From Marsupella aquatica (taxonomy: Eukaryota; Plantae; Marchantiophyta): a stretch of DNA of 64,000 nt. Positions within the stretch are counted from its first letter, which is position 1. Each line of letters starts with the position of its first letter. The notes beneath the pieces are model-generated. The model was not told the origin of the DNA. It searched no databases and saw nothing but the letters and a program-made list of their open reading frames with translations. The position numbers and the translations under genes were made by a program. Shown here one piece after another: positions 14,839-61,600 of the stretch. The stretch lies in contig OZ316893.1 of assembly GCA_973895155.1 (NCBI GenBank), positions 12,664,359-12,728,358 of the forward strand, in the 5' to 3' direction.

Positions 14839-15183
14839 TGAACTAATACTTTATTTTGCCAGTGTATAATTCCACCTTTTTTAGAACAATTAGAGAACTC
14901 TGTCAGAAAAACAAAGGTCACAAGACAAAAAACCAAGGCTAGTTAGAAAATGTACACTAAGTTGCCATTGCACATACAATAAAATAGGAATATTTTTAGC
15001 AAAAGATACCCTGGATTTACAAAGGATTTGAAAACTATGGAGGGCTCTTTGGTATATTCAATGCCACAATTTAAGCTCTTGAGAGCATCTATTACAAAAA
15101 TAAGCAAAGATACAAATGGGCAAACAAAATCAGTATATAATATTAAAAAAAATTCTGCTCATTATCATGACTATGAATCATGT

Positions 15184-18096: not shown

Positions 18097-19957
18097 ACAC
18101 AATTTTGGACCGAACGAGAACTATTTCCTCTAAACGAGAAGTGTATTTTCATTTTCTGCCGAATCTCGCGAAATCGGCAGTTTTTTTCATCAAAAACACA
18201 TTTTTGGGGAAATAATGTAATTCGTATCAGAGTTCGGATTGAAACAGCAAATTTAATAATGATCAAAACCAATGAAATTCATACTAACAAACATTCATAT
18301 TATCAAGGAACAATTAGATCCGAAAAAATTTCTCCTCAACCTCATATTCACGCTCTCCGAAGATATATGAAAAGTCTTATCTATAAATCCATATCCACGT
18401 TTCGAGCCAAGTGCGATAACTGTATCGGACTCCGGATTTGAGCCATGAAAGCTCTGACCCAATCTCAGTTTTCTCAGTTTTTGGATATTTACCAAAAATA
18501 TTTTACATCACAGTCGATAAGAATTACTGCACGGTTTGTCAAACTTACCTTGCAGTTACCTCCGCAATTGACCAGTTACCTCCGCAAGTGACCATAGTCA
18601 ACATGCCATTCTTTCAACATCAATGCGCAGTCCAATAAAATTATCGCGAAAACTACGGGCGACAAAAATACTAGTCGACAATACTAAGATCCTTCAGTTC
18701 ATTGGTTAAATTTCAAAATTCCTATCCATATGAAGAAAACTCTTCGCAATACCAACATCAGATAAATTTATCGCTTCAATTTCAAAATTGCAACTTCCAT
18801 ATGAAGGAACCACTTTTGCAATACCAACATCAGATAAATTTATCGCTTCAATTTCAAAATTGCAACTTCCATATGAAGGAACCACTTTTGCAATACTAAC
18901 ATCAGATAAATTTATCGCTTCAATTTCAAATTGCAACTTCCATATGAAGGAACCACTTTTGCAATACCAACATCAGATAAATTTATCGCTTCAATTTCAA
19001 AACTATATAATTTTGCCACGATGCACGTGTGAGAATGAAATTGGAAATCCAAGAAATATACCATTTTCTGTTATTTTGTCGTTTAGGGTGACAGCCAATC
19101 AAAAGTGGACACGTGGGCCAACCCCTCAACAGACACTATAAAAGGGCCACCGCCGATAAGTTTTTTGCACAGGAGGATGCGATAAGTTTATCGCACTCCG
19201 CATTCGAATTGAAAATATGACTTCCTAAGACACATAAGCCCTGAATTCAATCTTTCACAAAAATAACAACTCCGATAAATTTATCAGATTCTCAATTACT
19301 CCTCTTTCCATGAAAGGAATGAAGACTCCGATAAATTTATCGGAATGAAGGCAACACCTCTCTAAACACTGGATCAAATGATTGCAACAGAGGAATGCAG
19401 AATGCGATAAATTTATCGTAGTCCGCTCGAATCTGGACATTTTACACTAAATGACTAGTTAGTCTTACATGGAGAACTTGAACAGGAATGGTTGTTCCGA
19501 TAAATTTATCGGGTTTTCGGTAGAAAGAGTCGAATCGCTTGGGAGGAATGTAAGACTCGATGGGAGTTTGGTATTCGCTCTCAGTCAGGAGATATTTGCT
19601 CTGGCGAAAGCAAACGTTTTATGGGCAGCCCGCTCCTCTTTATATAGGAGACGCTCTAAACCATGGTTAATTTCCTCTTAACCATGGTTAAGTTTCCCCT
19701 TTACCTGGGTTAGTGCATGGTCGTTCCTGGATTACGCGGTTCGGACCAAGTTACTTGCAGTTCGGACTTTTTCACTAACGGAATGTAAAACCCGATGCAC
19801 GTATCGCTCCCTGCATTCCCGCGGCGATGCAATGGAGGAAAGTGGCATTTCGGAGAGTTTTTGCCAATTTTATCGGTCATTGCATTGCCTTAGAAAAAAA
19901 ACAGGATCGGGCTAAATGAGAACTCCGACACACTTCTCGGTCGGTCCAAAATCGTGT
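18097..19957. mobile_element. Non-autonomous TIR DNA transposon, 1.86 kb, superfamily unclear
   Basis: TIR ACAC(A/G)ATTTTGGACCGA(A/C)CGAGAA at both ends. TCTACA is duplicated at 18091-18096 and 19958-19963. Confidence 0.85.
18720..19002. repeat. About 72-bp tandem repeat, about 4 copies, each with the palindrome GATAAATTTATC
   Basis: CAATACCAACATCAGATAAATTTATCGCTTCAATTTCAAA at about 18747, 18819, 18891 and 18962. Confidence 0.9.
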
Positions 19958-20139
19958 TCTACATGGTTGTTTAGGACGAGCCATGCTTACACATTCATAA
20001 ACAAAATTAATTGTAAGAAATCATAAAAAATTAGGATAAACTCAGAACTAACAAATCATCAAAAATACACAATAATACTACTATTCAATGAGCTATTCAA
20101 GATTCATGTACAAATTAGTTGCATACTTCAATCTATATA

Positions 20140-23070: not shown

Positions 23071-23154
23071 TGTCGTGAGGATTCTTTGTTTAGTAAGTTC
23101 CTCCTAAGTATAGCTTAGTAGTATAGGATAGTAGTTTAAATTCTCGCGTATGCA

Positions 23155-24671: not shown

Positions 24672-24858
24672 GTTCTCTCTTGACACTAGCAGCCATAGGC
24701 CCGGTGCTTCCTCAAGAACCACATTTTCCCCCCAGACACCGCTGTCTCCTCAAACAATCTACGTCATGCTTGAGTAGCTGGACTGGATCCAAGATAGACT
24801 TGTTCTCTCTTTTTGTCATGCCCATCTCCTCCGCGGCATCCTGGCATGCCTCTTCCAA

Positions 24859-35700: not shown

Positions 35701-36019
35701 ATAATTTAAAACAAAAACACAGACACAAAATCTCAATAGGACAAATTAAGTAACTTCAGTAGGCTCCCAAACAAGGTAGCCATACCCATTGAGATTTCTT
35801 ATATGTGTTTTTATTTCTAGGCTTTCAAGTGTACGTATCAGGAGTGCAATTCATTTCAACCCAACCTGAGGAGGGAGATGAGCCGCCAACAAAATCAGCG
35901 GCCAACATTTGTCACACACTAAAGTTATTGAACCTGATGATACACCCTCAAACTTGGTCGAACACTCCTTTGAATCCTTGCAAGAGAGAAGTCGAAATAG
36001 ACTTGGCAAGCAGCAGAAG

Positions 36020-42857: not shown

Positions 42858-44291
42858 GCGGGATGACCATTCCAGGTCCAATAACTAAGGTGGGTCTAGC
42901 AAGTGTGCAACACATTAGCAACGGGGAAGGTTTAGAGTATAGACATGATTAGACAGAGAGGTCATCCGTTGAAGACAAATGCCAAATATAGTTATCGGCA
43001 TTATCTTATCGGATCGACCCCACTTAGCGTATATAGAATCTTAGGATAGGACACGCCATTTTGTGATCTGACAATTAGAGAAACCTAGGATAGGTTAGAC
43101 TTGGCGTTGTGACCGTTCATGGCCATAGCCCTTAGAAAATATTTAGTGCACCCCCTCGTAGAGGCAATGGGATTTTAGGTTTAGAATCGGGTATCCACAG
43201 AATGTGCGAGAGTCCCGGCCAGTCGCGGAACTCGACTACCTTAACACTTAGCTCCGGCGTCGCTGACTCCGACGCCGAGCTCCCTTATGGTCCAGGCCCA
43301 AATAGGCCATCCCAGGAGGACTCAGCATGGGGAGACTTGTGAGCGACGAGACGTGTCGCTAGCGAAGGCAAGGAGCCAAGCTGGTGACACCACTAGTAGA
43401 AACCGGGGGGTATTTAGACCCCATTAAACGACTATTCAATACCGTATAGGACTTGGAAACGACTGGGAAGGACTCTAGTCCTTTATAGGACTGCGAGTCG
43501 TATGTTTTGTTACTATAATCAACTGAGTCCTTTATAGAACTGGTTTATAAGTCGTTTAATAGACTGGATTTTCAGTCTATTTTAGTCTTTGTGTGGGTAG
43601 CTTTGGTGAGTCTTTTTCAGTCTTTTATGGGCTGCGATGGTGAGTCGTTGGGAACAACTCAAAAGGTTATGGAGGGTAGTCTTTAAATATACTTTGTGGG
43701 TTTATAAAATGACTAAAGTAGACACTTTGTGGGGGTTTATAAAACGACTCAAGTAGACACTTTGTGGGGTATGTACAAGTCTTTCATGTCAACTGGAAAT
43801 GAGTGATGAAGACCCCACTATACTACTTGGAATGAACTCACTCTTGTGCACAAATAACACATTTCATTCATGTTTTATTGTGTACTTGGAATGAACTCAC
43901 TCTATAAGGTCACCATTCACCATGTTAACATTAGAACCTCACACAAATTTTCAGAAAGCCATCTTCTATACCATGTACACTAATATGAATTCACAGATTC
44001 AAACATCATAGACTACAAAGAAGGTCACAAAGCATTCGTCTATACCATACACACTAATACTGAATTGATACAAAACAGATTCAAGTATCATAGACAATCA
44101 CCATAGAGCCATAGTTTGACATCAATCACTTGTTTCATACATACAAAATTCAGAAATATCAATGTCACACACAACGGCTCCTTCATCCTCTTTACCAAAT
44201 GGAAAAATTGGTACAGATATTTCTTGGATTTTTCCAAGGCAATGTCAAAATGTAACACAATTCACATGATTCTATCTACACTTGTATTCAG

Positions 44292-47200
44292 TCACTGCAG
44301 ACTAACACACTCTGATGGCCAGAGCACAAGAGATCCTACTGCATCTGCAATTATTTCTTGAGGTGGATCATCGTCTCTATTCGGAAATGGCAAATTACAA
44401 TCAGATACAATCACTGTAGTCAACAACACTACTACATGGTCATCCGGGACCACTTTGCCATGGAATTTAGCATGATCCGGTCGCAAAATGCCTGTACCCA
44501 CACATACCTGCGAGTCATTCTCCCATGATAGAAGATTATGGACTGGCTCTGCTGTGGCTATCACCTCCACCTTACCCTGGCTGTTTTTCTTGGCTTTCCT
44601 GGGTGGCTTATACATGACATTATTCATACCTTGGTTGCGAGTCATGACTTTGGCACGAGTGTTTTGTGCTGGTGATCGAGAATTGGCTACACTCTTCTTC
44701 AAAGAATCTGCATCCATATTTGACACTTCCGATTGTGTAGCAGGATTTCCCTGCGACATCATCTCAGTATCTGCTAACATTGTACTTGCTTCAATTGAAG
44801 CATCTACAATCTTACTTGCATCCAATGTTGCTCCCAAGTTTCGACGTCGCTTCACCCTGCTCCCACTTGGTTGAGAGTCTGTCAACTCTGCATCAACTAC
44901 AATTCAATGCATTGTCCAACATAAGTGAATCACTCATCACATGTGCGCCATGTACATGTCACCATCCACAAAGTTGTCACTATCTCCTTACCATTATGAA
45001 CAGCCTTCTTCCCCTTCTTTGCCATTGCCATATCCTCCATGTCTGCTTCTGCTGATCAATAAACAGACCACAAGATTCAGGTTCAATCTATTAACCACTG
45101 AATTGTTTCTCAACAATGGTAGGAGAGGAATTTAAAGCATCAGCTTACCTGATACCTCCTTGGCTATGGTCACTGAGGCACTGGGCACATCTTTTTCATT
45201 GCTCTTTGAATCACCTGATACATCAATCATGATGTCACTTCAATTCCCAGTTTATCCAACCAATTCTTACAGAAAAGATTACCTCCAACCGGCTTAAGCT
45301 TCACAAAACTCCATGCACTTTTCAAATGTAATGTACTGGATCATAGCAGGTTACCTGTCTCAGCAACCTTTTTGCCATTCTGCTTACCGATTACAGGGTC
45401 CAGGTTCTCTGCCTCCACTCTTCCTGCATTCAAACCATTCACTCAATTCATGAAAACTTACTTCTAACATTTGAACATAGGACACAATGAACAATGGGCC
45501 TCTCTTGTTTCAAAATCCTCATTGCATACCTGTGTCAGATTTGCCAATTCCCTTTTTTGTTAACAAGGGCACACTTTGTACAATGTTGCCCTCATTGTTT
45601 GGTTGGGAACCACCCAATTTTTCAATCACAAGCTTGAAATTAGATTCCACTGATGCAAGAAGGTTCGCTACAGATGCCTCCACAATATCCAAACGATCAG
45701 CCAATTTACTTTCCACTCGAGGGAGTCCACACTCTAATGACTTCAACCGTTCAGACATCTTTGTGAGAGTTGTAACAGTTCCCTGTCATAACACAGTTTA
45801 CATATCTCAGATAATTGTCCCCAAGAACTGGTTGCTTACTTCCTACTACAATTCTTTCTGATGCTCAAGGCCAAATAGTCACAGAACATATAGAATTACA
45901 ACATAATCACCTGTTTGGAAGTCACACTTGTCACCTCACTCCTTTGTTTCATGAACTCCTCTCTCACTTCTTGTGCTGATGGTTCTTCACCTGTCAATTT
46001 CTTCTGCAGTCCACATCAACATACATATGAATGAAACCAAGTGTTGATTGTCAATGAAAATGTAATAATGGTAGCAAGATGATAAGTTTGAGGCTTACTA
46101 TTAGGCATGTCACTGCCTTACCAATTGTTCTTTCACTGGAGCATAACTTCCTCTCCCAGCCTGTGAAAGGTGTTTCACTTTGCCTCGAGCATTTGACATC
46201 AGTTCACTCTTGCTCTGTCCAGCCTCCGACATGAACCCTTTGATTAACCGTGTCCATTGATCCAGTTCCAATGATGGGGGTGGTGGCATTCTCCTGTTAG
46301 AACCATTGTCTATCCACATCCTTTTCAACCTATGCCTCTCTTGTTTCAAAATCCTCATTGCATAATCTGATATGCAATCTTCAACTGGGCCCTTACCATC
46401 ATTACCAACATAGTCCCACCGTTCAAGAATGTCCTTGCAGATAGCAGCCCAATCAGCTTTGTTCTGACTCCTAAACTCTGTAATGCTCAAATCTAACCAA
46501 CGCAATACTTCTCCTCTTAGGTCAGAATGCCAACGGTTCTTACCATCACATGTGGGAGTTATCCAACCTTCGGAATTCACTTCTACTTTACCAAATTTGT
46601 TACTGTCTCCTGCCTTGGTACTCCCTGAAGCGCTACTAGGTGTCCCTCCACGGCCTGGTGTCCCCCCACGGCCTGGGGTCCCTCCACGGCCTGATCTCCC
46701 CCCACGGCCTGGATTGCATTGTCCAAACCTCCCTGGAGTCCCTGCACATTTACAGGATCCATTTACAGTCACTTACATTAGGTAAGTATGAATCATAAAT
46801 CCTGCTGCCAAATATACACTGGACTTCAGAGCAATTCTGCAATGACCAAGTTACCTCTCCCTTGGCGCATAGATGGTTCTGGACCACCTGTCCTATTGCT
46901 TTGTCTTGATGAATTAGGGCCGTTTCTCCCGCCTGTGAATGATTGCCGCCTATCTGAACGTGGATGGCCTTTGTTGTTTTCGTGATTGTCCCAATCAGAG
47001 TCTGCATACCAACAGGTACATGCCACACTCATGGACCTGTAAGATAAACTCTTTGCCCTAGCTACACATCAGATAAGTCCATATTGAGCTAAATCTCTAC
47101 TACCATCACAAAATCACTAGCATAAGGCACTTACTTGTCCAATCATCCTCCTCACCTGTCCATTGCCCTCTGTACCCGTCTCTACCACGCTCTGGGTGTT

Positions 47201-47477
47201 CATATTCATCCCATCCATCTTCTGCTCCATCATAGTCATCATCATAATTATCAGGCGTCCCTTGCCAATAACTCTGGCTCCTTCTAGGGTATGGATTATG
47301 TGATTTCTCTCTAGCTGCCCACCTACCTGGGACTTGATGAGGGCCCTGTGCATCCTGCACAGGTGCATTTTTCTGTGAGCCCCCTGCATCTGGGTCTCCA
47401 TCCATATCCAATCTTTCCTCTTCACCCCACTCTCCAAGCCCCATGTCTGTCTCCATGTCATCACCCTCTTCCCCCAT
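44292..47477 (-). CDS. Multi-exon TnpA-like (Ptta/En-Spm) protein
   Basis: Lies downstream of TnpD. Exon ORFs 47477-47130, 46772-46120 (QWTRLIKGFMSEAGQSKSELMSNARGKVKHLSQAGRGSY), 45758-45519 and 44885-44292 (FHGKVVPDDHVVV...GSLVLWP). Exon structure is approximate. Confidence 0.65.
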
Positions 47478-47654
47478 AGCTTCTGCACAGCACCCACAAC
47501 CAAACAGGGAGAATCAGCACACTAAATTCAAAGTATCAATCAATTTCATGCATATCCAACTATCCTAAACATCATTCCAGGCAGCAATTCCCGTTCTGTG
47601 ACTCTGTGCAGGTAGTCATCCTCAACCTCATACTTGCCAATCGCCAGCTGTTGC

Positions 47655-50600
47655 CTATTGCAAATCATTAACCTCATCATATTCCATTTGCCCAGGTTCA
47701 TCATATGTCTCTCTCAATGTTAAGGGGATGTAGTCAGTCCCTGCCCGAGTTGGAAGTACAGTCTCATGACTAGGATGCTCGAATGCAGCATGGTCATCCA
47801 AACTGAACTCTACTTTACTTCCATCCATCCGCCTGTTCCGTGCTTGGCTATGGCATACCACCCTCCAGCCATGTGACTCCTCCACATCTGCAAAGAAAGC
47901 CTGTTCAACTTGGCTAGGGAAAACAAAAGGCTCAGACCATTATGGTACTCTGGACCTAAAATTGGCCAACAAGAACCCATCATGATCACGCTTCATGGTG
48001 GCCCTTGGTCTCTGCCACTCTGATTTCACCCATGATCCCTTCATCAATATCACTGGGACACTTGTGTTACCATAATTCAACACCCAAATGTCGGTCAACT
48101 CCCCCACGTAACCCATCTTCATCCACCCCCTCTGTTCTTCAGAGGTTCTCTGCTCAAACACAGAAATCAAACCACAATCATATGATACACAATGGTCACC
48201 CTGCTCATCCCTCACTCGATAATGATTTCCATAAGCTCTCATCCGTTTGTAGGTCAGAATAGACAATCGTGGTGGCACAGATAGAAGATACAAATCCTTC
48301 TCCATATCTGGGTGATGTCTACTATGCTCTCGAATTGTCACCCGAATCCACTGCTCGAACTGTGGGAAGGGATCCTGCTGCCCAGAGTGTGCAGCTTTTT
48401 GCATATCATATTCCCTGCAATATGAGGTACAGGCATAGTTAGGTCTAAACAACACATGACAACCTAAGATCACCCTTGGAACAGACAAGAAGCATCACAA
48501 CAAAGGCAAGTCAATTCAATCACTCACCTCCACCATGGTTGCATAGGCTCTGTGTTTGCCAGCACATATGAATGAGCCTTGTCTCGAATCGCAACAGGCA
48601 GCTGAACAGCACGTCCCACACCTTCAACAACCTCGCCACTCACTCCATCATCTTCACCAGATTTCCAAACTCTTGTCATAGCTTCACCAGACCCAGCCAT
48701 GTACTCTGTTAGGAATCCCAACGTCTCATCCTTAATGTACCCCAATGCCATGGAAGCCTCTGGCCTGTAGTATGTTCTCACATGACCTTTCAACAACTTC
48801 ATGTATCGCTCCATAGGGTACATCCATCTGGTACTGACTGGCCCATACTGCCCTAGCTCTTCTACCACATGGATTAGGAGATGAGTCATAACATCAAAGA
48901 AAGCAGGGGGGAAGTATATCTCCAAGTCACAGAGGACATAAGCAGCATCCTGCTTCAACTGCTCCAATCCTTGGGGATCCCACACTTTCACACATATACG
49001 GCGAAATACATTGCACAGTCGAAGAATGACATTACGGACTGGTTTCTGCATGAGACCTCTGAGGCATAGGGGCAGAATGTGCTGCATCAACACATGGTAG
49101 TCATGTGTTTTCATACTGCCAAGTTTATTCTTTGTAATATGCTTCTTGAAGGCACCAGCATAGCCAGAGGGCACTTTCAGACAGCTCAATCTATACAAGA
49201 ATGTCTTCCATTCATCCTGTGTGCACACATAGGGAGCTTGGAACTTGAGAAGTACATTGGGATTGCTTGCATGGGGCTTCAACCAAAGGTGAGGGCGAAT
49301 CCCCTTCTGTTGCATATCAGCTCGAACTGCTCCTGTATCTTTCTCACCCGACAAGAACTTCAGCAAGCTCTCACAAATATTTTTCTCAATGTGCATGACG
49401 TCCACATTGTGTTTGCTGGGCTCGAATTCCTGCACTCCACAAAGCAAAGAATTCAACAACAGAAACACTAATTAACCACATAGGAGGATTGTAACCAACA
49501 TCAATCCACCATTGCTCCAATCTAAAATTGCAATCATACAGGGGCTGGAGGCTAAGTACATTACCCTCTAGTACTCCAACTCCAAGTCCATCAAGGTCTG
49601 TCTTTTCACACCGTGTTTCACCACTGGATCCTCAGGTTCTCGATCAGTGGCACTTCTCTTGTCCCAATCAGCCTTCCTGGCTGCCCACCTCAGGACTTGC
49701 TCTCTGGTGACCCTCTGTGGTGGGCCACGAAGCTTTGTTTTGTTGTTGAAGTGTGCAATTTGAGACCGTGTGTGCCTGTAAGGATGATCAACAGGCAGAT
49801 ACCTTCTATGCCCCTGAAATTTCATACTGTGCAGGGCATGCGACCACTCACTTGTCACATTTTTCCCACATGGTGTGCACCCCACATAGCCCTTTGTCAC
49901 TCGTCCAGATATGATGCCATGGCCTGGGTAATCTGCTATATCCAGCAAACAAATTGCATGCAGTCTAAAGGGGCTGGGTCGAAGAAGCCCCTTCAGAACA
50001 TCATGGGTTAACACCCCTTCTATCCACAAAGTCTTCCACTCTTCCACTGCTGGAGCCAACATGATATCTATGAATTGCTCGGTCACAGAAGCTGGTCCAG
50101 GGATTAACAGCACCATCATGACAAAAAACCTCTTTGTAGTCATCCATGGGGGAAGGTTGTAATTTAGCAGCGTAACCGGCCAACATGAATAACGGTTGTT
50201 TTTGTCTCCAAATGGGTTTACTCCATCCAGTGATAGACCAAATCGAAAGTTCCGCTTCTCTGCAGCAAACTGTGGCCACCTCTCATCAACAAATTTCCAA
50301 TGGTTGGAATCTCCAATGTGACGCTGCAGGCCATCACTGCTCTTGTTATCAGGAGTCCATGTCATCAGCTTGGAAATGGCAGGGCATCTAAACAGACGTT
50401 GTAGTCTAGGAATGAGAGGAAAATGACGAAGAACCTTGGCAGGGTGTGTACATTTCCCTACATTCTTGTACCTGTGCTTACCACAATGAGGGCATGTCAA
50501 TTTATCTGCATGCTCTTTGCGAAAGAGAACACACCCATCAGGGCATGCGTCAATAGACACATAGTTCAGCCCAAGGTTAGACATCAATTTCCTAGCCTCG

Positions 50601-51355
50601 TACATATTTTTTGGAATTGAATTACCATCTGGTAACACATTTCGGCGCAGGAAGGTCAACAACTCTGTCACAAATATATTGGGAACATTGTGATTGCCAC
50701 AGATGTTCAACAACAACACGACAAAACCCAGCTTGGAGCAGTTCGACCCCTCGTAGATAGGAATGCAAGCTTCTTTGATGTGTTTTGGGCCCCCAAACAC
50801 CCACTCCCTCTCTGCTGCACCTTCCCCAATGTCAAAGTCAGGTTCAGCTTGGCCGTCGCCAATGTGTGGCTGCGGTTCATTGTCCTCTTCTGATTCCACT
50901 GTGTCGTAAAAAGCATCAAGGTCTTCAAAAATCTCTTGAACCATTCTTGGGACATCCATCCCACCGTCCTCAGTGACTGCCTCTGCATCTCCATCTTGGT
51001 CATCCACGTTCTCATGTTGGACCCCAGGACCATCCTCTGCACAGTCTATGTCCTGCTCTACGTAGTCTCTACGCCTAGCTGTATTAGAATCCACAAAGTC
51101 AGCTCTCCACTCTTCATCAGAGGAGTCTTCTTCTGCTGGTACATTCCAAACCCTCCACCGAGGGTGCCTTTCATGCCGCAGCAGGTGAAGGTGCACAGTG
51201 TTCAAACTCAATGACTTGAATCCTTGGCACTGTGTGCATGGGCATCTCATCCTCCTACTCCTACCTTGGGCGGCCCGGGCTTGTTCACGCATCCACAATT
51301 TAGAATCATGATGCCTAATCCTAAATGGGTTGTGAAGAGGCAACCTTGGAGCCAT
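47655..51355 (-). pseudogene. tnpD: CACTA TnpD transposase (Transposase_21 / DUF4218 / DUF4216 type)
   Basis: IDACPDGCVLF, LRHFPLIPRLQRLF, LSLDGVNPF, YNLPPW, DVMHIEKNICE, MKTHDYH, RWMYPMERYM. Introns at about 49564-49431 and 48527-48416. Premature stops at 49568 (W to TAG) and 47940. Confidence 0.93.
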
Positions 51356-51681
51356 CACTATACACACGCACTCAGCACCCTGTCATTTTATTATGCAAGT
51401 GAAAAATACACTTCCTGTTAAGGATTTCACCCCCGACTGTACTTGCCAAAATACGTAACGTTCCAAAAAAACAAAAAAACAAAAAATATAGGTGCCTGAG
51501 TCATGTACCTATTCTCAAGTGAATGAGACAAAATTCCTAAATGTTTGAGGATGTCAACTCCTCCGCTGTCCTCACATGTACTGCCTCTGCACGTACATCC
51601 ATGACCATATCAGAGTCCAATCATGTATAGTCATAGACACAGGTGCCAGGTGCGAGACCGGTGTGAGATGTCCTCATCTTA

Positions 51682-52251
51682 CTACCACATCAAATACGGA
51701 TACCAATCTTGTTGTCGATGCCACTCAGCCCTGAGGTACTCAGGCATGTACATTAAGTCATCAAGGTCTAAACCCTGCTCATGCCATGGTGGTCTTCGAT
51801 CCATGCCTACAAGCAGTGGCAGCAGTGCCCTCCATGGTGCACATGTTGCTACCAAGTCCCTCCACTGGGTACTAATTAGTCTATATTTGCAGATATCTTG
51901 TGCGCCAGACACCACAAGAACCCTCGGCCAGACATGTGTAAGAACTATATCATCTGCCAAATCAGACAACAAGGAACCACCTACAGCATCGTGCTTGTCT
52001 AACTCATCTGCTGAAAAGTAAATGTCCTCTTCCGACTGTGCATCCTCATTCACCACAGCATTCACAACACATCCAAGGTCTGCAGGCATTATCTCGGATG
52101 GAGCTACACTCTGTCTGGTTACCAATCCACACAAGTAAGCCCAAGCAGTAGCCATGCACGATGCAACCCGTAGGAGGACCCTACACAGGGCCTGACGGTC
52201 TGGAAGAGGCAGCATACCCACCAAAGTCTTCAGCCAAACAGAGCCCAGCAA
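51682..52251 (-). CDS. F-box-like small protein (CACTA cargo)
   Basis: LLSDLADDIVLTHVWPRV...ICKYRLISTQWRDLV...PW follows the F-box spacing. Confidence 0.55.
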   Translation of the reverse strand: MLGSVWLKTLVGMLPLPDRQALCRVLLRVASCMATAWAYLCGLVTRQSVAPSEIMPADLGCVVNAVVNEDAQSEEDIYFSADELDKHDAVGGSLLSDLADDIVLTHVWPRVLVVSGAQDICKYRLISTQWRDLVATCAPWRALLPLLVGMDRRPPWHEQGLDLDDLMYMPEYLRAEWHRQQDWYPYLMW

Positions 52252-52391
52252 GTAGATTCACAGTCACACCCCACGCAGCAGGAAACAACAATCACTTCAA
52301 CTGCGACCAACCATGACAAGATGAGTTAGTTCAAGGATCACATTTATTACAAAATTGTGATTTATACAAAAATATGAGGGACTCCTACTCC

Positions 52392-53255
52392 TCACTCTCT
52401 CCCACCTTTGCTAAGCATACATCTCCGCTGAATCTTGGAGGGCCAGGCCTCAAAAATATCAAAGTCCCAAGCATTCTGTCGCTTCCCTCTAGCTGCTGAT
52501 TCCAGAAGCCAATCAGGGGAAAGCACCCAAAGATTGTTGTTCATGACAAAATCACGCACTGTTGTCTTAAAGAATTTTCTGCATATTTTCATGTATGACA
52601 GACCTACAACATGAGTGGAGGTTTCTGTTAGACTCTCCTCCACTGTCCCACCTAGCTCAACAACTATAGACTTGTACAGTCTGCACTTAGTCTCCCCAAT
52701 TCCTTCTTCTGCAAATACCACACTGAACCCCTTCATAATGGTATTTCTCTCCTTGCCATGCTCATTCAATATAGCATCTGCACGCATAGGATGGTGTCCT
52801 ATGTTGACAACAGGTCCATATTGGACAGAAGCAAAGTTGGGTTTCTCTGCCGCTGCTTCATAGGCTTCCTTTTCAGCCAAAGCCTCTGCAGTGGCCTCCT
52901 CACTCTCCCACAACTCATATTGCTCAGTACTCTGTACACACCTATGTTTAACAGAATCGGTCAGCCAAGAGACTTCAACTACTTTTAGACCTTGGTTGGT
53001 AATGGCAGAATCAATGAAGGACCATGACCACTTGTTCATCACATCCAGCCATGTCCCCGCAACAACATGTGTAGTCTGTGGAGTGATGTCCTTGACTTCA
53101 GTCCCATGGAACTCTGAGAATCGTTTTTGTACGATTGGCCAACTCACTTGGGTGAACCCATAGTGGCCAGGAATCAAAATGGCTTTGATTCCAGCCAACA
53201 GAGGCGGGTGGTCAACATTTGTACGTTTCCTAGAGGCCATGTACACACGGGCCAC
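52392..53255 (-). CDS. Tandem BRCT-domain protein (CACTA cargo)
   Basis: Two repeats: ITPQTTHVVAG...VVEVSWLTDSV and LGGTVEESLTETSTHVVG...VLSPDWLLESA. Intact and intronless. Confidence 0.8.
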   Translation of the reverse strand: MARVYMASRKRTNVDHPPLLAGIKAILIPGHYGFTQVSWPIVQKRFSEFHGTEVKDITPQTTHVVAGTWLDVMNKWSWSFIDSAITNQGLKVVEVSWLTDSVKHRCVQSTEQYELWESEEATAEALAEKEAYEAAAEKPNFASVQYGPVVNIGHHPMRADAILNEHGKERNTIMKGFSVVFAEEGIGETKCRLYKSIVVELGGTVEESLTETSTHVVGLSYMKICRKFFKTTVRDFVMNNNLWVLSPDWLLESAARGKRQNAWDFDIFEAWPSKIQRRCMLSKGGRE

Positions 53256-53840
53256 CTAATCACTGCAGACCGGAAGATAATGCGTTCACCTGATAATCGG
53301 AGGGCCCTTAAAATGCTGCGTTTATAACTTGGTCCAGTCCAGTCGTCTGGTGAGTCTCTGCTCCGATTCCAAACGGGAGAAATATTGGGACAAACGTACT
53401 AGACACCTGCAAGCATGCACTTCATAGTTTGAATATGTGCCTTCACAATATTGAAGGTGACAAGTGCAATTGTTTTGTGATGCCACATACAGATGTTTCG
53501 TATGGGGGCAGACATTCAATGAGAATACAAAATGTTGGTACACTTTAAGGGAATTCTCGCAAATTAAATAGCCTTGTAACTTATATGCTCATAATGAGAA
53601 GTCCTGATTTAATTTAAGCAGTGTCATGTAAGTCGTGATCAAAATGATTGCAGAGTTAAAAAAGTTCCTAGAAGGCTTAAGGGGAGATTTTGAAGGCATG
53701 TACCCAGGAACAAGTAATGAACTTAGGGTACTTGTTGCCTAAGCATCCTCTCCTACAGAGGTCCTTCTTCTCAAAATTGGAATGTCTGCAATCTCCAAGG
53801 TATCCACATCAGGTGCACTATGCATGTACATTATTCAGGT

Positions 53841-54521
53841 TCAAAGCCAAGAAATGTGATCTCTCATGGGAGTGTGCAAAGTAGGATCTATGGCATGGCG
53901 ATGACAATAGAAGATCCATCGATCAACACCATGTGCAGAGTGATCATAGATGTGTCTGTCACAAGCATAGCCTTCTGCTTGACGCTCCTTCAAACAATGA
54001 AAGTGCCACATGGTGGGACACCTAACACAGTGGACTATGTCCACCCAGAAATCTTCATCGTGCTGACCACATGCCTTGCACTTATGAAGTGGGCAAGCTG
54101 TGGCAAGATCGGGCAAACATGAAAAACAAAAGAACCTCACACAATATCTGTCAGGGCATTTCCTAACAAGTGGTGGAGCATCAATAGAGCCCTCATAAGA
54201 CCCCAACTTCCCACACTGTGCACACTTAGCCTGCTTCTCCAAACAATCAGTGCACATCCAGCCTCCTTGGTGTGCTGACGGGAGGCCCACCCCTGGACAG
54301 TTGTTTTCTGCAGCAAGGTCAGACTCCGGGTTGAGGTGGAAATGCCTCATGCAAGGGCCCTCACATATGGCTAAGTCACCACCATCGTCACAAATGGCAC
54401 AACAATGAGCCGCCTTCTGGAAAATCTGACTTGCGGAGAAGTTACTACCATCTGGCCCAACTACACCTGTGTTGCTCACCTCTGTCCCCCGCTTCTTGGC
54501 TCGGATTTTAGGGCGTGCCAT
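53841..54521 (-). CDS. Stand-alone EDM2-like PHD-finger cassette (CACTA cargo), intact
   Basis: CAICDDGGDLAICEGPCMRHFH...CPLHKC...CVRCPTMWH...YCHRHAIDPTLHTPMRDH with an N-terminal basic NLS-like tract. Confidence 0.88.
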   Translation of the reverse strand: MARPKIRAKKRGTEVSNTGVVGPDGSNFSASQIFQKAAHCCAICDDGGDLAICEGPCMRHFHLNPESDLAAENNCPGVGLPSAHQGGWMCTDCLEKQAKCAQCGKLGSYEGSIDAPPLVRKCPDRYCVRFFCFSCLPDLATACPLHKCKACGQHDEDFWVDIVHCVRCPTMWHFHCLKERQAEGYACDRHIYDHSAHGVDRWIFYCHRHAIDPTLHTPMRDHISWL

Positions 54522-55190
54522 GCCTACGCATGAGACAGATAGTACAATTTAGCAGAGTGCACAGACAATACAATTTAGTGCAGTGTACAAAAAGTACAGT
54601 GTAGCATATAGACTAGAGTGGCAATTGCTACTGCAATGAAATGTTCACACACATGTGCAGAGTAGACATACTTTTTGGTTTGTTGAGCCCACACTAAAAA
54701 CTGATCCCCTCGTACAATAGCTCCACCTACACCTCAATTTTGTGGCTATGATTCACCAAAGGAGATCTGCAACAAGATTTAATGCATTTGAATCACATAT
54801 AACAGTCGTGACATGTAAAACAGGCATTTTTTGAACAGGATTGGTATCAAGCAGTGTGATCAGGGTTGTAATTTATACATCCTAAATAGGCTATGATAGT
54901 GAATGAGACAAATAAGTTAGGCATAAATCACTTTTTCCAAGTTATCACATGGCCCATTAATTCCAGTCTTTGAAAGGAGACTTTTAAGTGAGCTTGCTAG
55001 CCTCTTAAATTAGGATATTGTACTTAGTGCAGCCATAATAGGATAAGTTATGTACTGTTGACCCTAAACCCTGGACCCAAAATTGGTCATAATTCAAAAT
55101 CTTAAGTAAATATCCTCTCTGTTCAAGTCAAAGTGTTAAGTTATAGGTCAATGGTCTCTGGTTTGTGCATGCGGTGTGACAAGTGGTCCT

Positions 55191-55640
55191 CTAGAGCGTG
55201 TGATCCAAACATGTGTAGACACCAAAGTGACCGGTGGTGGGGTCTGGGAGGGCAGGACAAGTGACATTGCCAGGCACACTGCAGGATGGCGAGTGGTTCC
55301 AGATGATACATTGTGCTCTGTGAAAAAACCGACATCCAAGAGAACGGTCATCCAACTCTAGGCCAGAAGCCCTACAGGCAGGACAGTCATATTGGCAACT
55401 GTGCACACACCCTTGGGCCCTAATTTGTGGCGGGTCATGTACAAGAGACAGAAATACCAAGGATGTTGGGAAGGGTGGAGAAGCAGGTACAGGCCGACTG
55501 TAGTTGTTCCTGGCAACAACTGGGTACTCAAAGTACCATGCAGACTGGGCTGGAAGGATCCCAAGTCTGACATACTCAAGGCGCAACATCTCTGCCTTGC
55601 GTGCAAGCCGCACATGTTCAGCGTTGCGGGTCCTCACCAT
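55191..55640 (-). CDS. Hypothetical CACTA cargo ORF
   Basis: ATG-started 149-aa ORF on the same strand as the other cargo genes; no recognised motif. Confidence 0.3.
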   Translation of the reverse strand: MVRTRNAEHVRLARKAEMLRLEYVRLGILPAQSAWYFEYPVVARNNYSRPVPASPPFPTSLVFLSLVHDPPQIRAQGCVHSCQYDCPACRASGLELDDRSLGCRFFHRAQCIIWNHSPSCSVPGNVTCPALPDPTTGHFGVYTCLDHTL

Positions 55641-58600
55641 AAGTGTTGCTTTTGTGGAGATGTCATGTGTTCACGTCCTCTGATAAGCACCTTCGATCAG
55701 CAAGGTGAGCAGGAGCTGTACTTGCCTCACCAACAGCAACCAACCTTAAATTATCAGTTCCCACTCACTGTGTCATTCCATTGGTTCCAGCTAGGGGTCA
55801 CAGTGTAAACATAGCATGAAACACTCCTAATCAACTTGCTTACAAACTACAATATCCAGAAAGAGTGAAAGTCTCACCCTCCAGTGAGCAGCAGAGAGGT
55901 AGTTCACTAGATGTGTTGATGTGCAGTTAAACCTCCACTATTGCTTACTTCTGGTGTATGCTGCTCAGAAGAAGACATATTAGTAGCAGCAAATTGCAAA
56001 TAATGGCCATAAGCAAACCGTGAGAGTTTGCAGAATGCTACGACAAATCCATCACAGCAGTGCTCCACAGGAATGAAACCAAGCAAAATTTGGTGACCTC
56101 GGCCAATGACAAGGCCAATGTAGTGAACAATCCTTGACCGATCAGGATATGGATTGGAATTACAATTAGTCAGCTCTTCTTCTTTGTTTTCTAACTCTGG
56201 GGGAAATGAGCATGACCAGGGAATTCTCTGAGAAATAGAAGTGCACAGGGAAAATGAAATTGGCTCATTCAGCTCTGCAAGATGGACCATTGCAGCATAC
56301 TTGGACAGTTGTTCCGCAATACATAAAATACCCTGACTTACATGCAATTGATACAATCTGCTTCTGTTGGCTGTCCTACAGCTCATGGCAGTGCCGTTGG
56401 GACAGGGTAAGTGAATATTGCCATAGCTGAAGCACATTGAGCTTGCAGCAACAAGTGAAGGAGCATGGCCAAAAGCAGAAAAGACAGACAGGTTTTACAA
56501 GAAGAAACTAACAACCGCCAATCTGCTCAAATCCGCTGCATAGATCAAACCCTCCGAACTACACAGCCCTCCTTTGAAAACAATCCAATGTGCTTTGGCT
56601 GGTGGATGACAAGGACTGGGAGAAGAGGAAACGTCTGCACAATCAATCCAAATGACGGTACACAGAGACCAGGCACAGAGAGGATTTGTGCTTAGACAAA
56701 AACCACAAATTGTAGCATGGGCGCCATAGCATTCTAGACAAAGCACAAAACATAGAATCTATGAATCTATGACTCATGGACTAACAAAATGATTGGGTAG
56801 CATGGCAAAAGGAAAGACAAATTTCAAAATGACAACATGGCCCGTTTCCACCATTCATTTGACGTTGCTAGGTGTCCGTAAGATGACTGACCCACAAACA
56901 ATCCCGACAACCTCATCCGACAGACTGCTTTTCTAGTGTGAAGAAATACATGATTACAAGCAACACCACGCCTCATCCAAGCAGGGAATTGAAAACATAA
57001 CCATGTCATTCCTATATTGGACAGTGTCCTCTGCCATTGCACTGCATAGTTGTTATTCCATGTTGGTTGTCAACAGTTTGTTGGCTTGCCACAACCTAGA
57101 TAGAACAATAAAATATTGTACATGAATACAACAAGAAAAATCTGCATACAGCGATGGCCCGGTCACTTGAGGAAAAAACAAAACTAAGAAGGCAGGCACA
57201 CGGGCAACCGAGAAAAAAAGCTAGTGGCGCCTCGCGGAGAATCCAGAATGGTAATGCCCTCGCCCAGAAGCTTGGGAAACAAAAGAGAAAAAAGCAAAAA
57301 CGAGCTACCGACCACCGTCTTGACCAGGCCTGCCACAAGGTATGGCTGGAGGCTGTGGTCCCCCCCTCAGTAAAGAAAAGGATGCAGGTTGGAGCACGGG
57401 GCACAAGGCATGTTTGGATCCAGGAGGAGCAAAACAGTAATGTCAAGCAGGAAGTGTGGAGAGACCAATCAGTAAACAAAAATAGGGGAGAACAAACATA
57501 CATCAGCAGCAACAGGAAACGAGAAAGTTGATTTAGGAGGGATTGTAGGGAGAGAGCTTTTGGTGGGCTCGGCTGTGCGTGAAATATCGGGAGATAGATG
57601 CGCGAGAGAGTGAGGAGGGTGGCAAGCGGAAGACGGGTTGGGACTGGACCCTTGGTGCCGGTGGGTAATATATGGGGTTTCAGCAGACTTGGGGCCAGTT
57701 TGAGGAGGATTGAGAAGCGCGCACCCCACGTTCTTGGGTGGTGGTTGGGTGGGGTTTTGTTTGATTGAAGAAGAAATCACCATTCTCTTCTAGAAGAAAG
57801 AAAATCACAGGAAATAGTGGACGGGAGAACAAGGCATGTAATAGAGAACAACAAGGCATGTAATAGAGACAGTGCGCAGCTCAGCTCCGAGGTCACACTT
57901 TACGATGCACAGGGGGTCCTTGGTTGCACGTAGGAGAAGGACTGAATCACTGTGGCTGCTCTTCTCTACTATCGAAGCACCCGGCTGGCAGCTCCGCAAA
58001 CACTGATCGTAGCTACAATCTCTACACCGTTGATTGAAGAGCAGCTGCAGCACAGTAAGGAGCTCCCACAGCCTCCCTCTTCAAAGCTCGGTTGACCTAG
58101 CTCTACGATCGACGGAGCATGGGCGCCAGACAAAGCACAAACTGTACCATGGAGCTGGAGAAAAACACAGAGTAATTGAAGCCTAACAATACCCTTCTCA
58201 GCTCCTGATTGAATGAGGAAAAACACATTACAAGACACATTGCAGGCAATAGGATTTTAACAATGAAGTCTCGCCTGTGCTGACAGAATACCTGCTTACA
58301 GCCACGCGTTGCTCATCCTCCCACAGTTCGGTGGCACACTATCCAGATGGCATGACGCATGCCTTAACTTATGACGATTTGCGCAGCTCAAATCAAGTAG
58401 GTTGTCCCCACAAAAAGACAGAGGACAACAAAGAAAAGCAATGTAGCCGTGATGTCTTACCAGCCCTGACAATGGGAGCTTCAAAGGCGGTGCACTATGG
58501 CTGAAATGGCAGCACGCTGCTCGAACACTAAAGCAACACAAAACTTGGACTCTCACCTTATGCAACTCCTGGCTTGTATTCAGCTGGCGTTGGCCCACTC

Positions 58601-61600
58601 TAAGCTCCTGCGCCGCTCCGACTGCCAGTCGTTCTGTAGACGGTCTGTATCCTCCCTGACTGCAGCTCCTCCCCGCCCCCAGCTCGTCACCCGCGTCTTC
58701 TCCCCAATTTGTGGTGAGCTCCTCCTCGACCACAGCACCCTAAACTGCTTTGCCCAGCCTCTGATGGCCTTCACGTTGTTACCGATTGTCGCTCCCCACA
58801 AAGTCCACAATCCATAAACCAGGCAGATAGTGCGCCCGTAGAACAGATGCAACCCGCATGCAGCTTCACCAGCTCAATGGCAGCTCAACAGCTTAAGGGT
58901 GCAGCAAAAGGGCGTTGAATAGGTTGTCTCACCTCACCCTTCGAGAGCCGGTCATTGCAGCATCCCTAAACTCCCGATCCCTCTTCTCGGATTCCACAGA
59001 GCCGACCACAAGAAAATGGGAACACTAAACCTCACTGTAGAGACGTTCCCACCAAGATTACACGGAAAACCTTGCTCCGATCCCTAAGCTCCCAATCCCA
59101 TCGAGAGAACACGATAAAACCTTGCTCCAATCCCTAAACTCCCGATCCCACCAAGAGAACACAATAAACCTTGCTCCGCAAGTTGGGAATGTGGCGGGAT
59201 CCCTAAACACATCAACAACCTGCTAAGTGTAAGCAAAGTTGCATAACCGGCTTGTTCCCTTCCAACGGTCGCGCGACTCGGGTGTCCAAACGGTACTGCA
59301 AGCGGTACAGGCCCCTAGCTTGGGATACCCTTACCAAAGTCACTGGTGTTGCCGACATGGTAACGGCAAGATTATCCTGACCCTCCATAAACCCCCTCCA
59401 TTCACTCAAGTGTTGTGAGTGACAACTTAGTGTAGTGTCGCTAAACAAATACTTTGGCCTTAGCAAATATCTGTGGTGATCGAACTTCATTAAACCAAAC
59501 CTCTTTTGGTCACAAATAAGGCCATTTAATGAGTGATGCCCCTTGTCATCACCCTCTTAATTTATGCAATTACCCCTCCTGAACACAATTGAACATTGTC
59601 CAAATTGCCTACCCTCATGAATAATTTGTCAATTATCTTTCCCGACATATATGATGTCAATGGACATGATGGGGAACATGATGTCAATGGACATGATGCC
59701 AACGATCCAATGGTTCCTAAACCCCCATCCCCTTAACATGCAACCCCCGACCCTTGACATCAAACCCCCCTAAACCCCCTTTAGTGAAAACCCAGCCACC
59801 CCCTAGCCTTGACATATAAACCCCCTAAACGTCTTCACAACTCGACTGTGGCCAGACTATCTTTGCAATGCCAAGGGCCATTTTTAGAGTGCATGCCGCT
59901 TGCAAGCTCAGGCTCTCAAGATCCTCCCAAGGCAGCAAACAAGTTAGGGTCCCTAAACATGTTCCTTTACCCTAAACCATTGCGTCACTATTTCAATCGA
60001 GTGTTCTTTGCCTGGACAACCCCCTAACCCTAAACCCACACCCCCTTGAGACCGGTACAAATCTACCTTTGTGCATCTTGGCCTTTTATTGATGGAGTTA
60101 GTAATCGATCCCTCCGTAGTCCACCCTCCATGAACCTCACTCCAAAACCTTTTTTGTCACAAATAAGGCCATTTATTGAGTTATGCCCCTTGCTATCTCC
60201 CTCTTTACAGAATTACCCCTCCTCAACATAAGTGAACATTACCCATGATGTGCTAGACTATTCACCGTTCACAAAGTAGCAAGGTTACTTCTCATAGTCT
60301 TTTAGTGAACCATAAAACACTAATAGTCTTTTGTAGTCTTCAACAAAACTGGTGCAATGGGTGCGAGTCGTTTCAAGTATGGAAAAAGGACTTAGTGGGC
60401 TTAGTCCTATAAGGTATGGTCTAAATTGCCCCGGTTTCTACTAGTGCACACACTAAGGACTTGGGCTAGCTGAGAGCTGGTTGGGTCAAGTGGATATGGG
60501 CCGGGCTCAAGGACGACCATCCGGACCTCTAGATGGACCTTGAGTTATGAGGGCTTGAGGGTGAGCTCCTCTTGGGCCCAAGGCCCATGGAGTTGACGCC
60601 ATGGGCAACGGACGCTTGGGGCGCAAGTTACGGCCCGATCCGGGTTGGGCCGATCGGGGGCCCCGAGCGGCGATGAGACCTGAGGGCCTAGGCATGATCA
60701 CTGGTTTGGCCCGATCACAACGGGCTAAGGCACTCCGCTTGCAGATGCCTAACGAGAAAGTTATGGGCGTTGCTAGTTGGTGGCGCGCCCATTATGCGCG
60801 ATACAATCCGGGTTGGGGGCCAAATGTTTAGGGACCAAAGCTGGTCCAGGGGTGACAGGTCTCCAGAAGCATATATGAGGGGAGTGGTGTCTCCCTAGGG
60901 GCTAAGGGCGAGCCAAAGTCGTGAGCCGCGACGGTTGCGACACTAAGGGAAACTGTCAAACGGAAATGACGATATCTTCCCAACGGGAAATCCGTTGGAG
61001 GACTTATTGGGTGTGTTAGAAAGCTCTTGAGAAGGCCTACGCCCTCCTGAGCTCAGATAGGTCTGGGGGCACCTTGGGTTCTTGGGGTTTGCGGGTGTTA
61101 ACTCGTTCGCTTGCCAAATCCTGCCGAACAGCAGCCAAGTCGCATTCAGTCTCCCAAGGGAGCTTGCGTAGGGGAGGCAAGGCCAAGTAGGTATGGAGGT
61201 TGAGTTCCAAAAGTACTCGGTCCCTAGACCATCAGTGGGGCGAACCGGGAGTTGGTCGTTTGTGTCGGGACCATTCTGGTTCGGGCATGTTGGGACAAGC
61301 TTGGGACAAGCTTTAGGACAAGCTACGCTATTTGGGCCATGAGCATGTCCTGAGGTCAGGGTGGTCAGTTGGTGATGGATAGGTACGAGGGGGAACCCGG
61401 GCCACACCCAAGGAAGGAGTTGTTCTAGACGGACAGTGGACGTGGGTTTTGGTTCCAGCTTATGGCATCGGGAGGATCTATCTAGATCCCGAAGGGTTAC
61501 TTACCGAGGTGCTTGGTTGCTTGTGCAGACAGTGAGGCCGTTGAGTAGCGGTCGTGTAGGTGAGCAAGTGCGGCTTCGTATGGGAGTGGCCGCTGGTGAT

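What the first reader, a model, noticed from the sequence alone, without database searches (positions are those of the whole stretch)
51682..55640. CACTA with an intact cargo block: PHD, tandem BRCT and F-box-like ORFs
Seen: three open, intronless, co-oriented ORFs upstream of TnpD inside matching TIRs and TSD, while TnpD itself carries stops. Known: CACTAs usually capture gene fragments; BRCT pairs bind phosphopeptides in DNA repair; F-box proteins recruit SCF, and the viral silencing suppressor P0 is F-box-like. Inference: a functional toolkit for chromatin reading, repair recruitment and degradation of host factors, analogous in role to VANC anti-silencing proteins.
Basis: partly seen in the sequence, partly recalled or inferred. 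Interest (0 to 1): 0.72.

Follow-up and report, generated by a model that had tools for sequence, protein, structure and literature searches.

The report
Plant transposon carries stolen chromatin reader
A repetitive jumping gene of a plant, likely a liverwort, carries three extra intact genes; one is a long-conserved, stand-alone copy of the histone-reading part of the plant protein EDM2, which likely helps the element get around the host's silencing, though no function has been tested.

Summary
A 17,056-bp CACTA element (43391-60446; 18-bp TIRs, CAC target duplication) carries three open, co-oriented ORFs upstream of a TnpD that has two real stops. The "intact cargo, broken transposase" contrast means little: the copy is about 0.2% from its family's main contigs, so P(no cargo stop) is about 0.84. 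Better evidence exists. The cargo is family-wide (runs of three studies), and each ORF has diverged homologs (38-82% identity). The PHD ORF is a stand-alone EDM2-type triple-PHD module in its own clade (100/100), 29-35% identical to host EDM2s, with a confident fold. A second copy in the window, outside the CACTA, shows purifying selection (omega at most 0.14). Half of the short homologs begin with a histone-H3-like ARxK. The BRCT pair lacks the phosphopeptide pocket, and its recent changes look neutral (21 non-synonymous, 6 synonymous). The F-box is sub-threshold and carries an FFAT-like motif, which a frameshifting 43-nt deletion removes in some copies. Best reading: old, selected accessory genes, with the PHD likely reading or decoying H3 marks to counter silencing (about 0.45). 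This is not VANC and not a coordinated "toolkit" as far as shown. Verdict: new variant of a known kind; interest 0.62.

The parts
43391..60446 (-). Full-length CACTA/EnSpm element, 17,056 bp, inserted in retrotransposon sequence
   Evidence: TIR pair and TSD; covered in 30 of 30 bins in all 4 runs laid; contigs join 43387 to 60447 without it
43391..43408 (.). Left TIR (CACTA...), preceded by TSD CAC at 43388-43390
60429..60446 (.). Right TIR, followed by TSD CAC at 60447-60449
53841..54521 (-). Stand-alone EDM2-type triple-PHD gene, 226 aa, with an N-terminal ARxK motif
   Evidence: Pfam NSD-type PHDs; EDM2 relatives; own clade; AF2 pLDDT 89; Zn ligands kept; purifying selection
52392..53240 (-). 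Two-BRCT gene, 282 aa; the two domains are separated by a linker of about 65-70 aa; no phosphopeptide pocket
   Evidence: Pfam; homolog P0001 at 61%; pocket residues; recent variants 21 non-synonymous, 6 synonymous
51682..52215 (-). F-box-like gene, 177 aa: hydrophobic N-terminal helix, acidic FFAT-like motif (residues 62-71), F-box-like core
   Evidence: homologs at 50-54%; F-box in 3 of 4 members, best E 0.0011; Atlas; motif; 43-nt skip 52006-52050 in runs X3 and X5
55191..55640 (-). Fourth open frame, 149 aa, unidentified; homologs not searched
47658..51355 (-). TnpD transposase, exons 51355-49565, 49429-48528 and from 48414; two premature stops
   Evidence: Transposase_21 E 8e-59, DUF4218 E 2e-27; splice model
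44292..46772 (-). TnpA-like region (spliced; boundaries not modelled)
   Evidence: Transposase_24 E 0.014, below cut-off
17431..19984 (-). Second copy of the PHD gene, outside the CACTA; coding pieces 19984-19960 and 18092-17431, split by an insertion
   Evidence: 68% aa identity; without the insert the frame is 228 aa with no stop; no flanking homology to the CACTA copy
18095..19959 (.). TA-flanked 1.87-kb TIR element that interrupts the second PHD copy
   Evidence: TIR 27 of 34 matches, TA on both sides
12991..14850 (-). HTH plus rva_4 integrase-core transposase gene, downstream of the second PHD copy on the same strand
   Evidence: rva_4 E 1e-16 and 3e-8; HTH; termini not found

Best explanation
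This CACTA family carries three intact accessory genes, and its PHD gene is an old, selected, stand-alone EDM2-type histone-reader module that likely binds histone H3 tails on the silenced element and so would help its transcripts escape silencing or premature termination. Shown: the element, the ORFs, their presence across the family, the descent of the PHD from the EDM2 family, its clade, its kept zinc ligands and its purifying selection. Inferred from EDM2 biology: binding of H3K9-methylated tails. The module lacks EDM2's RFD and methyltransferase-like domains and has no DNA-binding domain. It would therefore act as a competitor or adaptor, not sequence-specifically like VANC. Its N-terminal ARxK could serve as an H3 mimic or simply as a nuclear signal. 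The BRCT pair likely is a non-phospho interaction scaffold for end-joining factors at excision breaks (weakly supported). The F-box-like protein would be a minimal SCF adaptor, possibly at ER membranes through its FFAT-like motif (weakly supported, and lost in some copies). Odds: PHD a selected accessory gene about 0.85; BRCT and F-box selected in the past about 0.7; counter-silencing as the PHD's job about 0.45.
For: Family-wide. The element is covered in 30 of 30 bins in 4 of 4 runs. The F-box/BRCT stretch is covered in 30 of 30 bins in X1, X4 and X5, and in 19 of 30 in X6. These runs come from studies P1-P4; P1 may be the source of the window. Old. Homologs: PHD 5 hits at 38-82%, BRCT 1 hit at 61%, F-box 3 hits at 50-54%, one of them a shorter 126-aa form. 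Selected. In-window PHD pair: pS 0.77, pN 0.17, mismatches by codon position 40/29/102 of 199, omega bootstrap upper bound 0.14. EDM2 descent. After the short relatives, the best profile hits are EDM2 and EDM2-like proteins, including the cluster of Arabidopsis EDM2. 24 Cys/His columns are identical to AtEDM2 and one is swapped His to Cys. The ten stand-alone rows form one side of a 100/100 branch (96 SH-aLRT with one extra row in the 137-row tree). AF2 pLDDT 89, pTM 0.84; fold hits are H3-binding PZP and NSD PHD modules, with low TM-scores. A second copy sits outside any CACTA, with no shared flanks, which fits a host-directed function better than a TnpD partner. Papers: EDM2 binds H3K9me2, changes H3K9me2 at 1,736 TEs and lets transcription pass heterochromatic poly(A) sites (PMC7529245, PMC9910501, PMC10241880; passages). 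VANC probably arose by capture of a host silencing factor (PMC13547354, passages).
Against: No binding, localisation or silencing assay exists. Recent BRCT differences are 6 synonymous of 27, as neutrality predicts (22%; p 0.56). F-box differences are 5 of 12 (p 0.11). These are the 39 coding rows among the 40 best-supported of 132. A 43-nt frameshifting skip removes the FFAT-like tract in two runs and is the main form in X5. The genomic context of the distant homologs is unknown, so that they sit in transposons is inferred. The link of the second copy to the rva_4 element is unproven. EDM2 acts in both directions: it activates COPIA4 but represses Mu1 (PMC3632883). In Marchantia many TEs carry H3K27me3 rather than H3K9 methylation (10.1101/827881). 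AF2 leaves residues 1-7 disordered, with no self-docking of ARxK. The tree has no outgroup root.
Confidence: 0.45

Rival explanations
1. Transposition helpers rather than counter-silencing. The PHD tethers the transpososome to marked chromatin and steers insertion into heterochromatin, as chromodomains of chromoviruses are thought to do (recalled). The BRCT pair recruits end-joining factors to repair the donor site.
For: This copy sits inside retrotransposon sequence in a window packed with mobile-element sequence. Plant Pol lambda binds LIG4 and XRCC4 through its BRCT and has a role in repairing TE excision sites (PMC4444747, passages). The best PDB hit of the BRCT profile is the LIG4 BRCT region (E 0.0059).
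Against: One insertion site is no sample. The same PHD gene lies next to an unrelated transposase gene, which a TnpD-specific tether does not explain well. The BRCT-to-Pol-lambda resemblance is recalled and could not be tested.
Confidence: 0.25
2. Relics carried passively. The genes were selected earlier, in other elements or in the host, and now ride along in a recently amplified family without function.
For: Recent BRCT variants are 21 non-synonymous to 6 synonymous. There is a frameshifting skip in the F-box ORF. The second PHD copy is disrupted. The copy is only about 0.2% from the main contigs, so open frames are expected.
Against: Coexisting BRCT variants at about 12-17% divergence align, and the listed indels inside the BRCT ORF add up to 3 bases (top rows only). 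None of the 39 listed coding differences is a stop. All three genes keep open, alignable homologs at 50-82%. Post-insertion drift inflates non-synonymous counts even in functional TE genes (general knowledge).
Confidence: 0.22
3. Pack-CACTA-style captured fragments that act, if at all, through small RNAs against the host parent genes, as proposed for Drosophila telomeric TEs.
For: Capture of silencing-gene fragments, including an F-box gene, is reported for such TEs (PMC13534243, passages).
Against: Those captures are about 90% identical to the host gene. Here the PHD is 29-35% identical in protein to the 7 named host EDM2-family proteins compared and sits on a long separate branch. Selection acts on the protein. 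The host's own genome was not available.
Confidence: 0.05

Closest known systems
EDM2 (ENHANCED DOWNY MILDEW 2) of the ASI1-AIPP1-EDM2 complex, and liverwort EDM2-like paralogs
   Same: Same triple-PHD module, including the C-terminal extension; 24 shared Cys/His ligands; 29% identity to Arabidopsis EDM2 and 32-35% to liverwort EDM2 and EDM2-like proteins.
   Different: Stand-alone 226 aa; no RFD or methyltransferase-like domain; about 21 aa deleted and one His to Cys swap in the second finger; N-terminal ARxK; encoded in a transposon; separate clade.
VANC anti-silencing proteins of VANDAL (Mutator-like) elements
   Same: Extra TE-encoded gene probably derived from a host chromatin regulator (PMC13547354); proposed role in counter-silencing.
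   Different: VANCs bind specific tandem DNA motifs and demethylate only cognate copies (PMC10398659). No such domain is found here, the carrier is CACTA, and the activity is untested.
CACTA/EnSpm elements with captured genes (Pack-CACTA; Ulp1-protease-bearing CACTAs, recalled)
   Same: Termini, 3-bp TSD, TnpD and TnpA-like layout, extra genes inside the TIRs.
   Different: The cargo consists of whole, intronless, long-diverged ORFs shared across the family, not recent host fragments.
Tandem BRCT proteins (BRCA1-type phosphopeptide readers; LIG4 and Pol X BRCTs of end joining)
   Same: Two BRCT domains.
   Different: The pocket Ser and Lys align with Tyr and Ser; long linker; closest family unresolved.
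Polerovirus P0 and minimal F-box proteins
   Same: Short protein with an F-box-like core and no recognised substrate domain.
   Different: No sequence match to P0 in Pfam, PDB or the Atlas; carries an FFAT-like motif and a hydrophobic helix.

Membership tests
CACTA/EnSpm superfamily | TIRs beginning CACTA | tested here: met
   18-bp match at 43391 and 60446
CACTA/EnSpm superfamily | 3-bp target-site duplication | tested here: met
   CAC on both sides
CACTA/EnSpm superfamily | TnpD (Transposase_21, DUF4218) | tested here: met
   E 8e-59 and 2e-27; two premature stops in this copy
CACTA/EnSpm superfamily | TnpA (Transposase_24) | tested here: inconclusive
   E 0.014, below cut-off
EDM2 proteins | NSD-type triple PHD module with EDM2 C-terminal extension | tested here: met
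EDM2 proteins | N-terminal RFD and C-terminal methyltransferase-like domain | tested here: not met
   the ORF is 226 aa and ends with the module; RFD is seen in host EDM2s but not here. So it is EDM2-derived, not an EDM2
EDM2 proteins | Binding of H3K9me2 peptides | not testable with these tools
   needs a peptide array or ITC
VANC anti-silencing proteins | VANC/MAIN-related domain in a Mutator-like element | tested here: not met
   no such Pfam match in any cargo ORF; the carrier is CACTA
VANC anti-silencing proteins | Sequence-specific loss of silent marks on cognate copies | not testable with these tools
   needs transgene expression and a methylome
Phosphopeptide-binding tandem BRCT | Two BRCT domains | tested here: met
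   E 4e-4 and 1e-9 for the two halves; the halves are 24% identical
Phosphopeptide-binding tandem BRCT | Ser/Thr-Gly and Thr-x-Lys pocket in the first BRCT (signature recalled) | tested here: not met
   BRCA1's Ser aligns with Tyr and its Lys with Ser; weak alignment, E about 0.05
Phosphopeptide-binding tandem BRCT | Head-to-tail packing of the two domains | tested here: inconclusive
   AF2 failed, pLDDT 33
F-box proteins | F-box motif above the curated threshold | tested here: inconclusive
   3 of 4 members hit, best 19.3 bits against 20.5; Atlas rank 3 is an F-box cluster at 0.91 with only 83 shared features
F-box proteins | Binds SKP1 | not testable with these tools
Pack-type captured fragments | Near-identical pieces of host genes | tested here: inconclusive
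   not met against the named plant EDM2s compared (29-35%); the host's own genome was not held

The most novel reading that the evidence does not exclude
Early-diverging land plants harbour an undescribed, ancient family of transposon-borne mini-EDM2 proteins: a bare H3K9-methyl reader with a histone-H3-mimicking ARxK tail, passed between unrelated DNA transposon superfamilies. It counters silencing by competing for heterochromatin marks instead of binding DNA. In this CACTA it is joined by an end-joining scaffold and an ER-tethered F-box, a virus-like counter-defence kit in a cut-and-paste transposon.
Probability: 0.22. Interest if true: 0.87.

Novelty: new variant of a known kind. Interest (0 to 1): 0.62.

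Why it matters
The plant TE anti-silencing proteins in the papers read (VANC, TnpA, MURA) act on their own element's DNA, and VANC was shown to be sequence-specific. A selected, stand-alone copy of the host's own heterochromatin reader would be a different strategy and a second case of a TE repurposing a host silencing regulator. It is small (226 aa), folds confidently and can be tested directly in Marchantia or Arabidopsis. It is also a natural minimal EDM2 PHD module for structural work; no EDM2 chain came up in the PDB search. No paper in the library holds CACTA with PHD finger and BRCT. Searches listed none on TE-encoded EDM2-type modules. Subscription papers and Repbase entries were not searchable.

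Tried and rejected
No whole genome is held for this window, so copy number, full-length sister copies and the host's own EDM2 could not be examined. No RNA holder was listed by the run search; this says nothing on expression. AF2 on the BRCT protein with a 2-row alignment failed. The context search with the PHD profile in metagenome contigs gave 9 loci, all host-type EDM2-like transcripts or unrelated PHD proteins at 26-46% identity, none from the stand-alone clade. Viral contigs gave nothing for any of the three ORFs. Prokaryote genomes gave one weak chance hit. NCBIfam gave nothing. No termini were found for the element around the second PHD copy. A 2OG-Fe/TET-like look of ORF 15184-15801 (motif recalled) was not confirmed by Pfam, PDB or NCBIfam. 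The region-wise identity table was dropped for the N-terminus because the alignment there is unreliable. Three key EDM2 papers were not held. Rejected: the intact-versus-broken contrast as evidence; phospho-H2A.X binding; membership in VANC or P0; summed contig depth as copy number.
Full report
1. What is there. The window holds a 17,056-bp CACTA element at 43391-60446, with an 18-bp TIR match and a CAC duplication. It is inserted in retrotransposon sequence. All genes are on the minus strand. From the right end they are: an unidentified 149-aa frame (55640-55191), PHD (54521-53841), BRCT (53240-52392), F-box-like (52215-51682), TnpD (from 51355) and a TnpA-like region. A three-exon TnpD model has in-frame stops at codons 596 and 1056, so this copy is non-autonomous. 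Three such ORFs in 4 kb are beyond chance: 0 of 2000 shuffles gave two or more. GC, GC3 and CpG depletion of the cargo match TnpD (CpG o/e 0.25-0.35 against 0.31-0.36), so the cargo looks long resident in methylated TE sequence.

2. Twelve long contigs of run X1 differ from this copy at about 0.18% of sites. At that divergence the chance of no stop in the three ORFs is 0.84. Intactness in this copy is therefore not evidence of selection.

3. The cargo belongs to the family. Eleven of 13 listed runs hold words of the block, four of them half or more. Laid contigs cover all 30 bins of the element in X1, X2, X3 and X5. They cover all 30 bins of the F-box/BRCT stretch in X1, X4 and X5, and 19 of 30 in X6. 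That is studies P1-P4 and four organism codes, and P1 may be the source. Main X1 contigs have depth near 1,800, against about 16 for the faintest. This suggests a high-copy, recently amplified family but is not a copy number.

4. The PHD gene. Five homologs of 217-245 aa at 38-82% align end to end. A profile search of 1.84 billion representatives gave 580 hits at E up to 0.001, of which 150 were listed. The top hits are further short proteins, followed by long ones. Look-ups name the long ones as EDM2 (including the Arabidopsis cluster) and as liverwort, moss, lycophyte and green-algal EDM2-like proteins. Identity to seven named host proteins is 29-35%. In a 44-row subset of the 137 domains, the ten stand-alone rows form one side of a 100/100 branch with a long stem. 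The 137-row quick tree gave 96, with one extra long-branch row inside. Neither tree has an outgroup. Twenty-four Cys/His positions match AtEDM2, and one His-to-Cys swap and a deletion of about 21 aa mark the stand-alone clade. AF2 gives pLDDT 89. Foldseek finds PZP and NSD PHD modules, 5 at E up to 0.001, with TM-scores of 0.28 or less over the query. The nearest named relatives by BLAST are liverwort proteins, so the host is likely a liverwort; that is an inference.

5. A second copy in the same window. A 68%-identical gene lies at 17431-19984, outside the CACTA. A TA-flanked 1.87-kb TIR element interrupts it after about eight codons; without that insert the frame is 228 aa and has no stop. 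Between the two copies synonymous sites are saturated (pS 0.77) while pN is 0.17. Mismatches by codon position are 40/29/102 of 199, and the omega upper bound is 0.14. The flanks share nothing. Downstream on the same strand is an HTH plus rva_4 transposase gene. No termini were found, so carriage by a second superfamily is likely but not shown.

6. N-terminal motif. Both window copies start M-A-R-P-K. Nine of 18 short homologs have M[AST]RxK before the first finger, four have an internal match, and five have none (two of these lack the N-terminus). Only 3 of 136 other rows start this way, and those three belong to a separate clade of short EDM2-like proteins. This matches the A1-R2-x-K4 spacing of the H3 tail (recalled). 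A basic nuclear signal explains it too, and AF2 leaves residues 1-7 disordered.

7. BRCT and F-box. The BRCT protein has one homolog (61%) and two true BRCT domains. In a weak alignment BRCA1's pocket Ser and Lys fall on Tyr and Ser, so phosphopeptide reading is unlikely. Its best PDB hit is LIG4 (E 0.0059). A resemblance to the plant Pol lambda BRCT is recalled and untested; that BRCT binds LIG4 and XRCC4 (PMC4444747, passages). The F-box-like protein has three homologs (50-54%). Three of four members hit F-box below threshold, and the Atlas ranks F-box clusters among its top hits. All four keep an acidic motif with Ser at FFAT position 4, the phospho-FFAT pattern (PMC7705450, passages; core consensus recalled), which would point to ER membranes rather than chromatin. 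Against constraint: of the 40 best-supported of 132 differences, BRCT has 21 non-synonymous and 6 synonymous (neutral share 22%), F-box has 7 and 5, and none is a stop. A 43-nt skip removes the motif and shifts the frame in X3 and X5; a 115-aa ORF to the same stop would remain.

8. Mechanism. Host EDM2 binds H3K9me2 and lets transcription pass poly(A) sites in heterochromatic TEs. It shifts H3K9me2 at 1,736 TEs, mostly lowering it (PMC7529245, PMC9910501, PMC10241880, PMC4980392; passages), but it represses Mu1 (PMC3632883; passages). A bare PHD module cannot supply EDM2's other domains. The likeliest action is to occupy marked H3 tails on the element, or to decoy readers and writers, so that its genes stay expressible (0.45). 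Steering insertion and repair is the main rival (0.25), then passive relics (0.22) and small-RNA decoys (0.05). In Marchantia many TEs carry H3K27me3 (10.1101/827881; passages), so the mark read is open. Expression, binding and cooperation of the three proteins are untested.

9. Comparison and verdict. The element is a CACTA by every feature tested except a weak TnpA match. The PHD is EDM2-derived but not an EDM2. Nothing here is a VANC or P0 member, though the origin parallels VANC's proposed capture from MAIN (PMC13547354, PMC10398659; passages). Paper searches (listings only) showed no report of TE-encoded EDM2-type modules; no supplements were read, and TE catalogues could hold such entries. 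The scan's own index held no look-alike. Verdict: a new variant of a known kind; interest 0.62.

Noticed in passing
window 15184-16371 (-): About 400 codons in one frame, with two stops, between the second PHD copy and the rva_4 transposase. The last 205 aa show an HxD...H pattern reminiscent of 2OG-Fe/TET-JBP dioxygenases (recalled); Pfam, PDB and NCBIfam gave no match.
   Followed up: partly
window 12991-14850 (-): Spliced HTH plus rva_4 integrase-core transposase gene (IS3EU-like by recall) in a land plant; termini not found.
   Followed up: partly
window 18095-19959: TA-flanked TIR element with 72-bp tandem repeats and many copies of a 13-bp near-palindromic motif.
   Followed up: partly
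window 23071-24738 and 41246-42857: Two 96%-identical LTR-like repeats in inverted orientation, each with a 14/28-bp tandem array; they belong to Gypsy-type sequence on opposite strands.
   Followed up: no
window 35982-37404 and 20141-20937: 375-bp tandem repeats in the Gypsy 3' region; two units read as a 212-aa repeat frame.
   Followed up: no
window 53668-55971: Summed contig depth in X1 is about two to three times that of the TnpD region, hinting that the PHD and the 149-aa frame occur in further subfamilies or elements; depth falls over 55972-60003.
   Followed up: no
proteins P0037, P0043, P0062; loci L001, L003-L007: A separate clade of short (about 320-390 aa) EDM2-PHD proteins nested among flowering-plant EDM2s; three of them also start MARxK. 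Stand-alone EDM2 readers may have arisen more than once.
   Followed up: partly
protein P0058: Marchantia polymorpha gene MARPO_0172s0021 is a 280-aa stand-alone EDM2-like PHD from the liverwort paralog clade.
   Followed up: no
window 52954-53248: At least two BRCT sequence types about 12-17% apart coexist in runs X1, X4 and X5, with mostly amino-acid-changing differences among those listed.
   Followed up: partly
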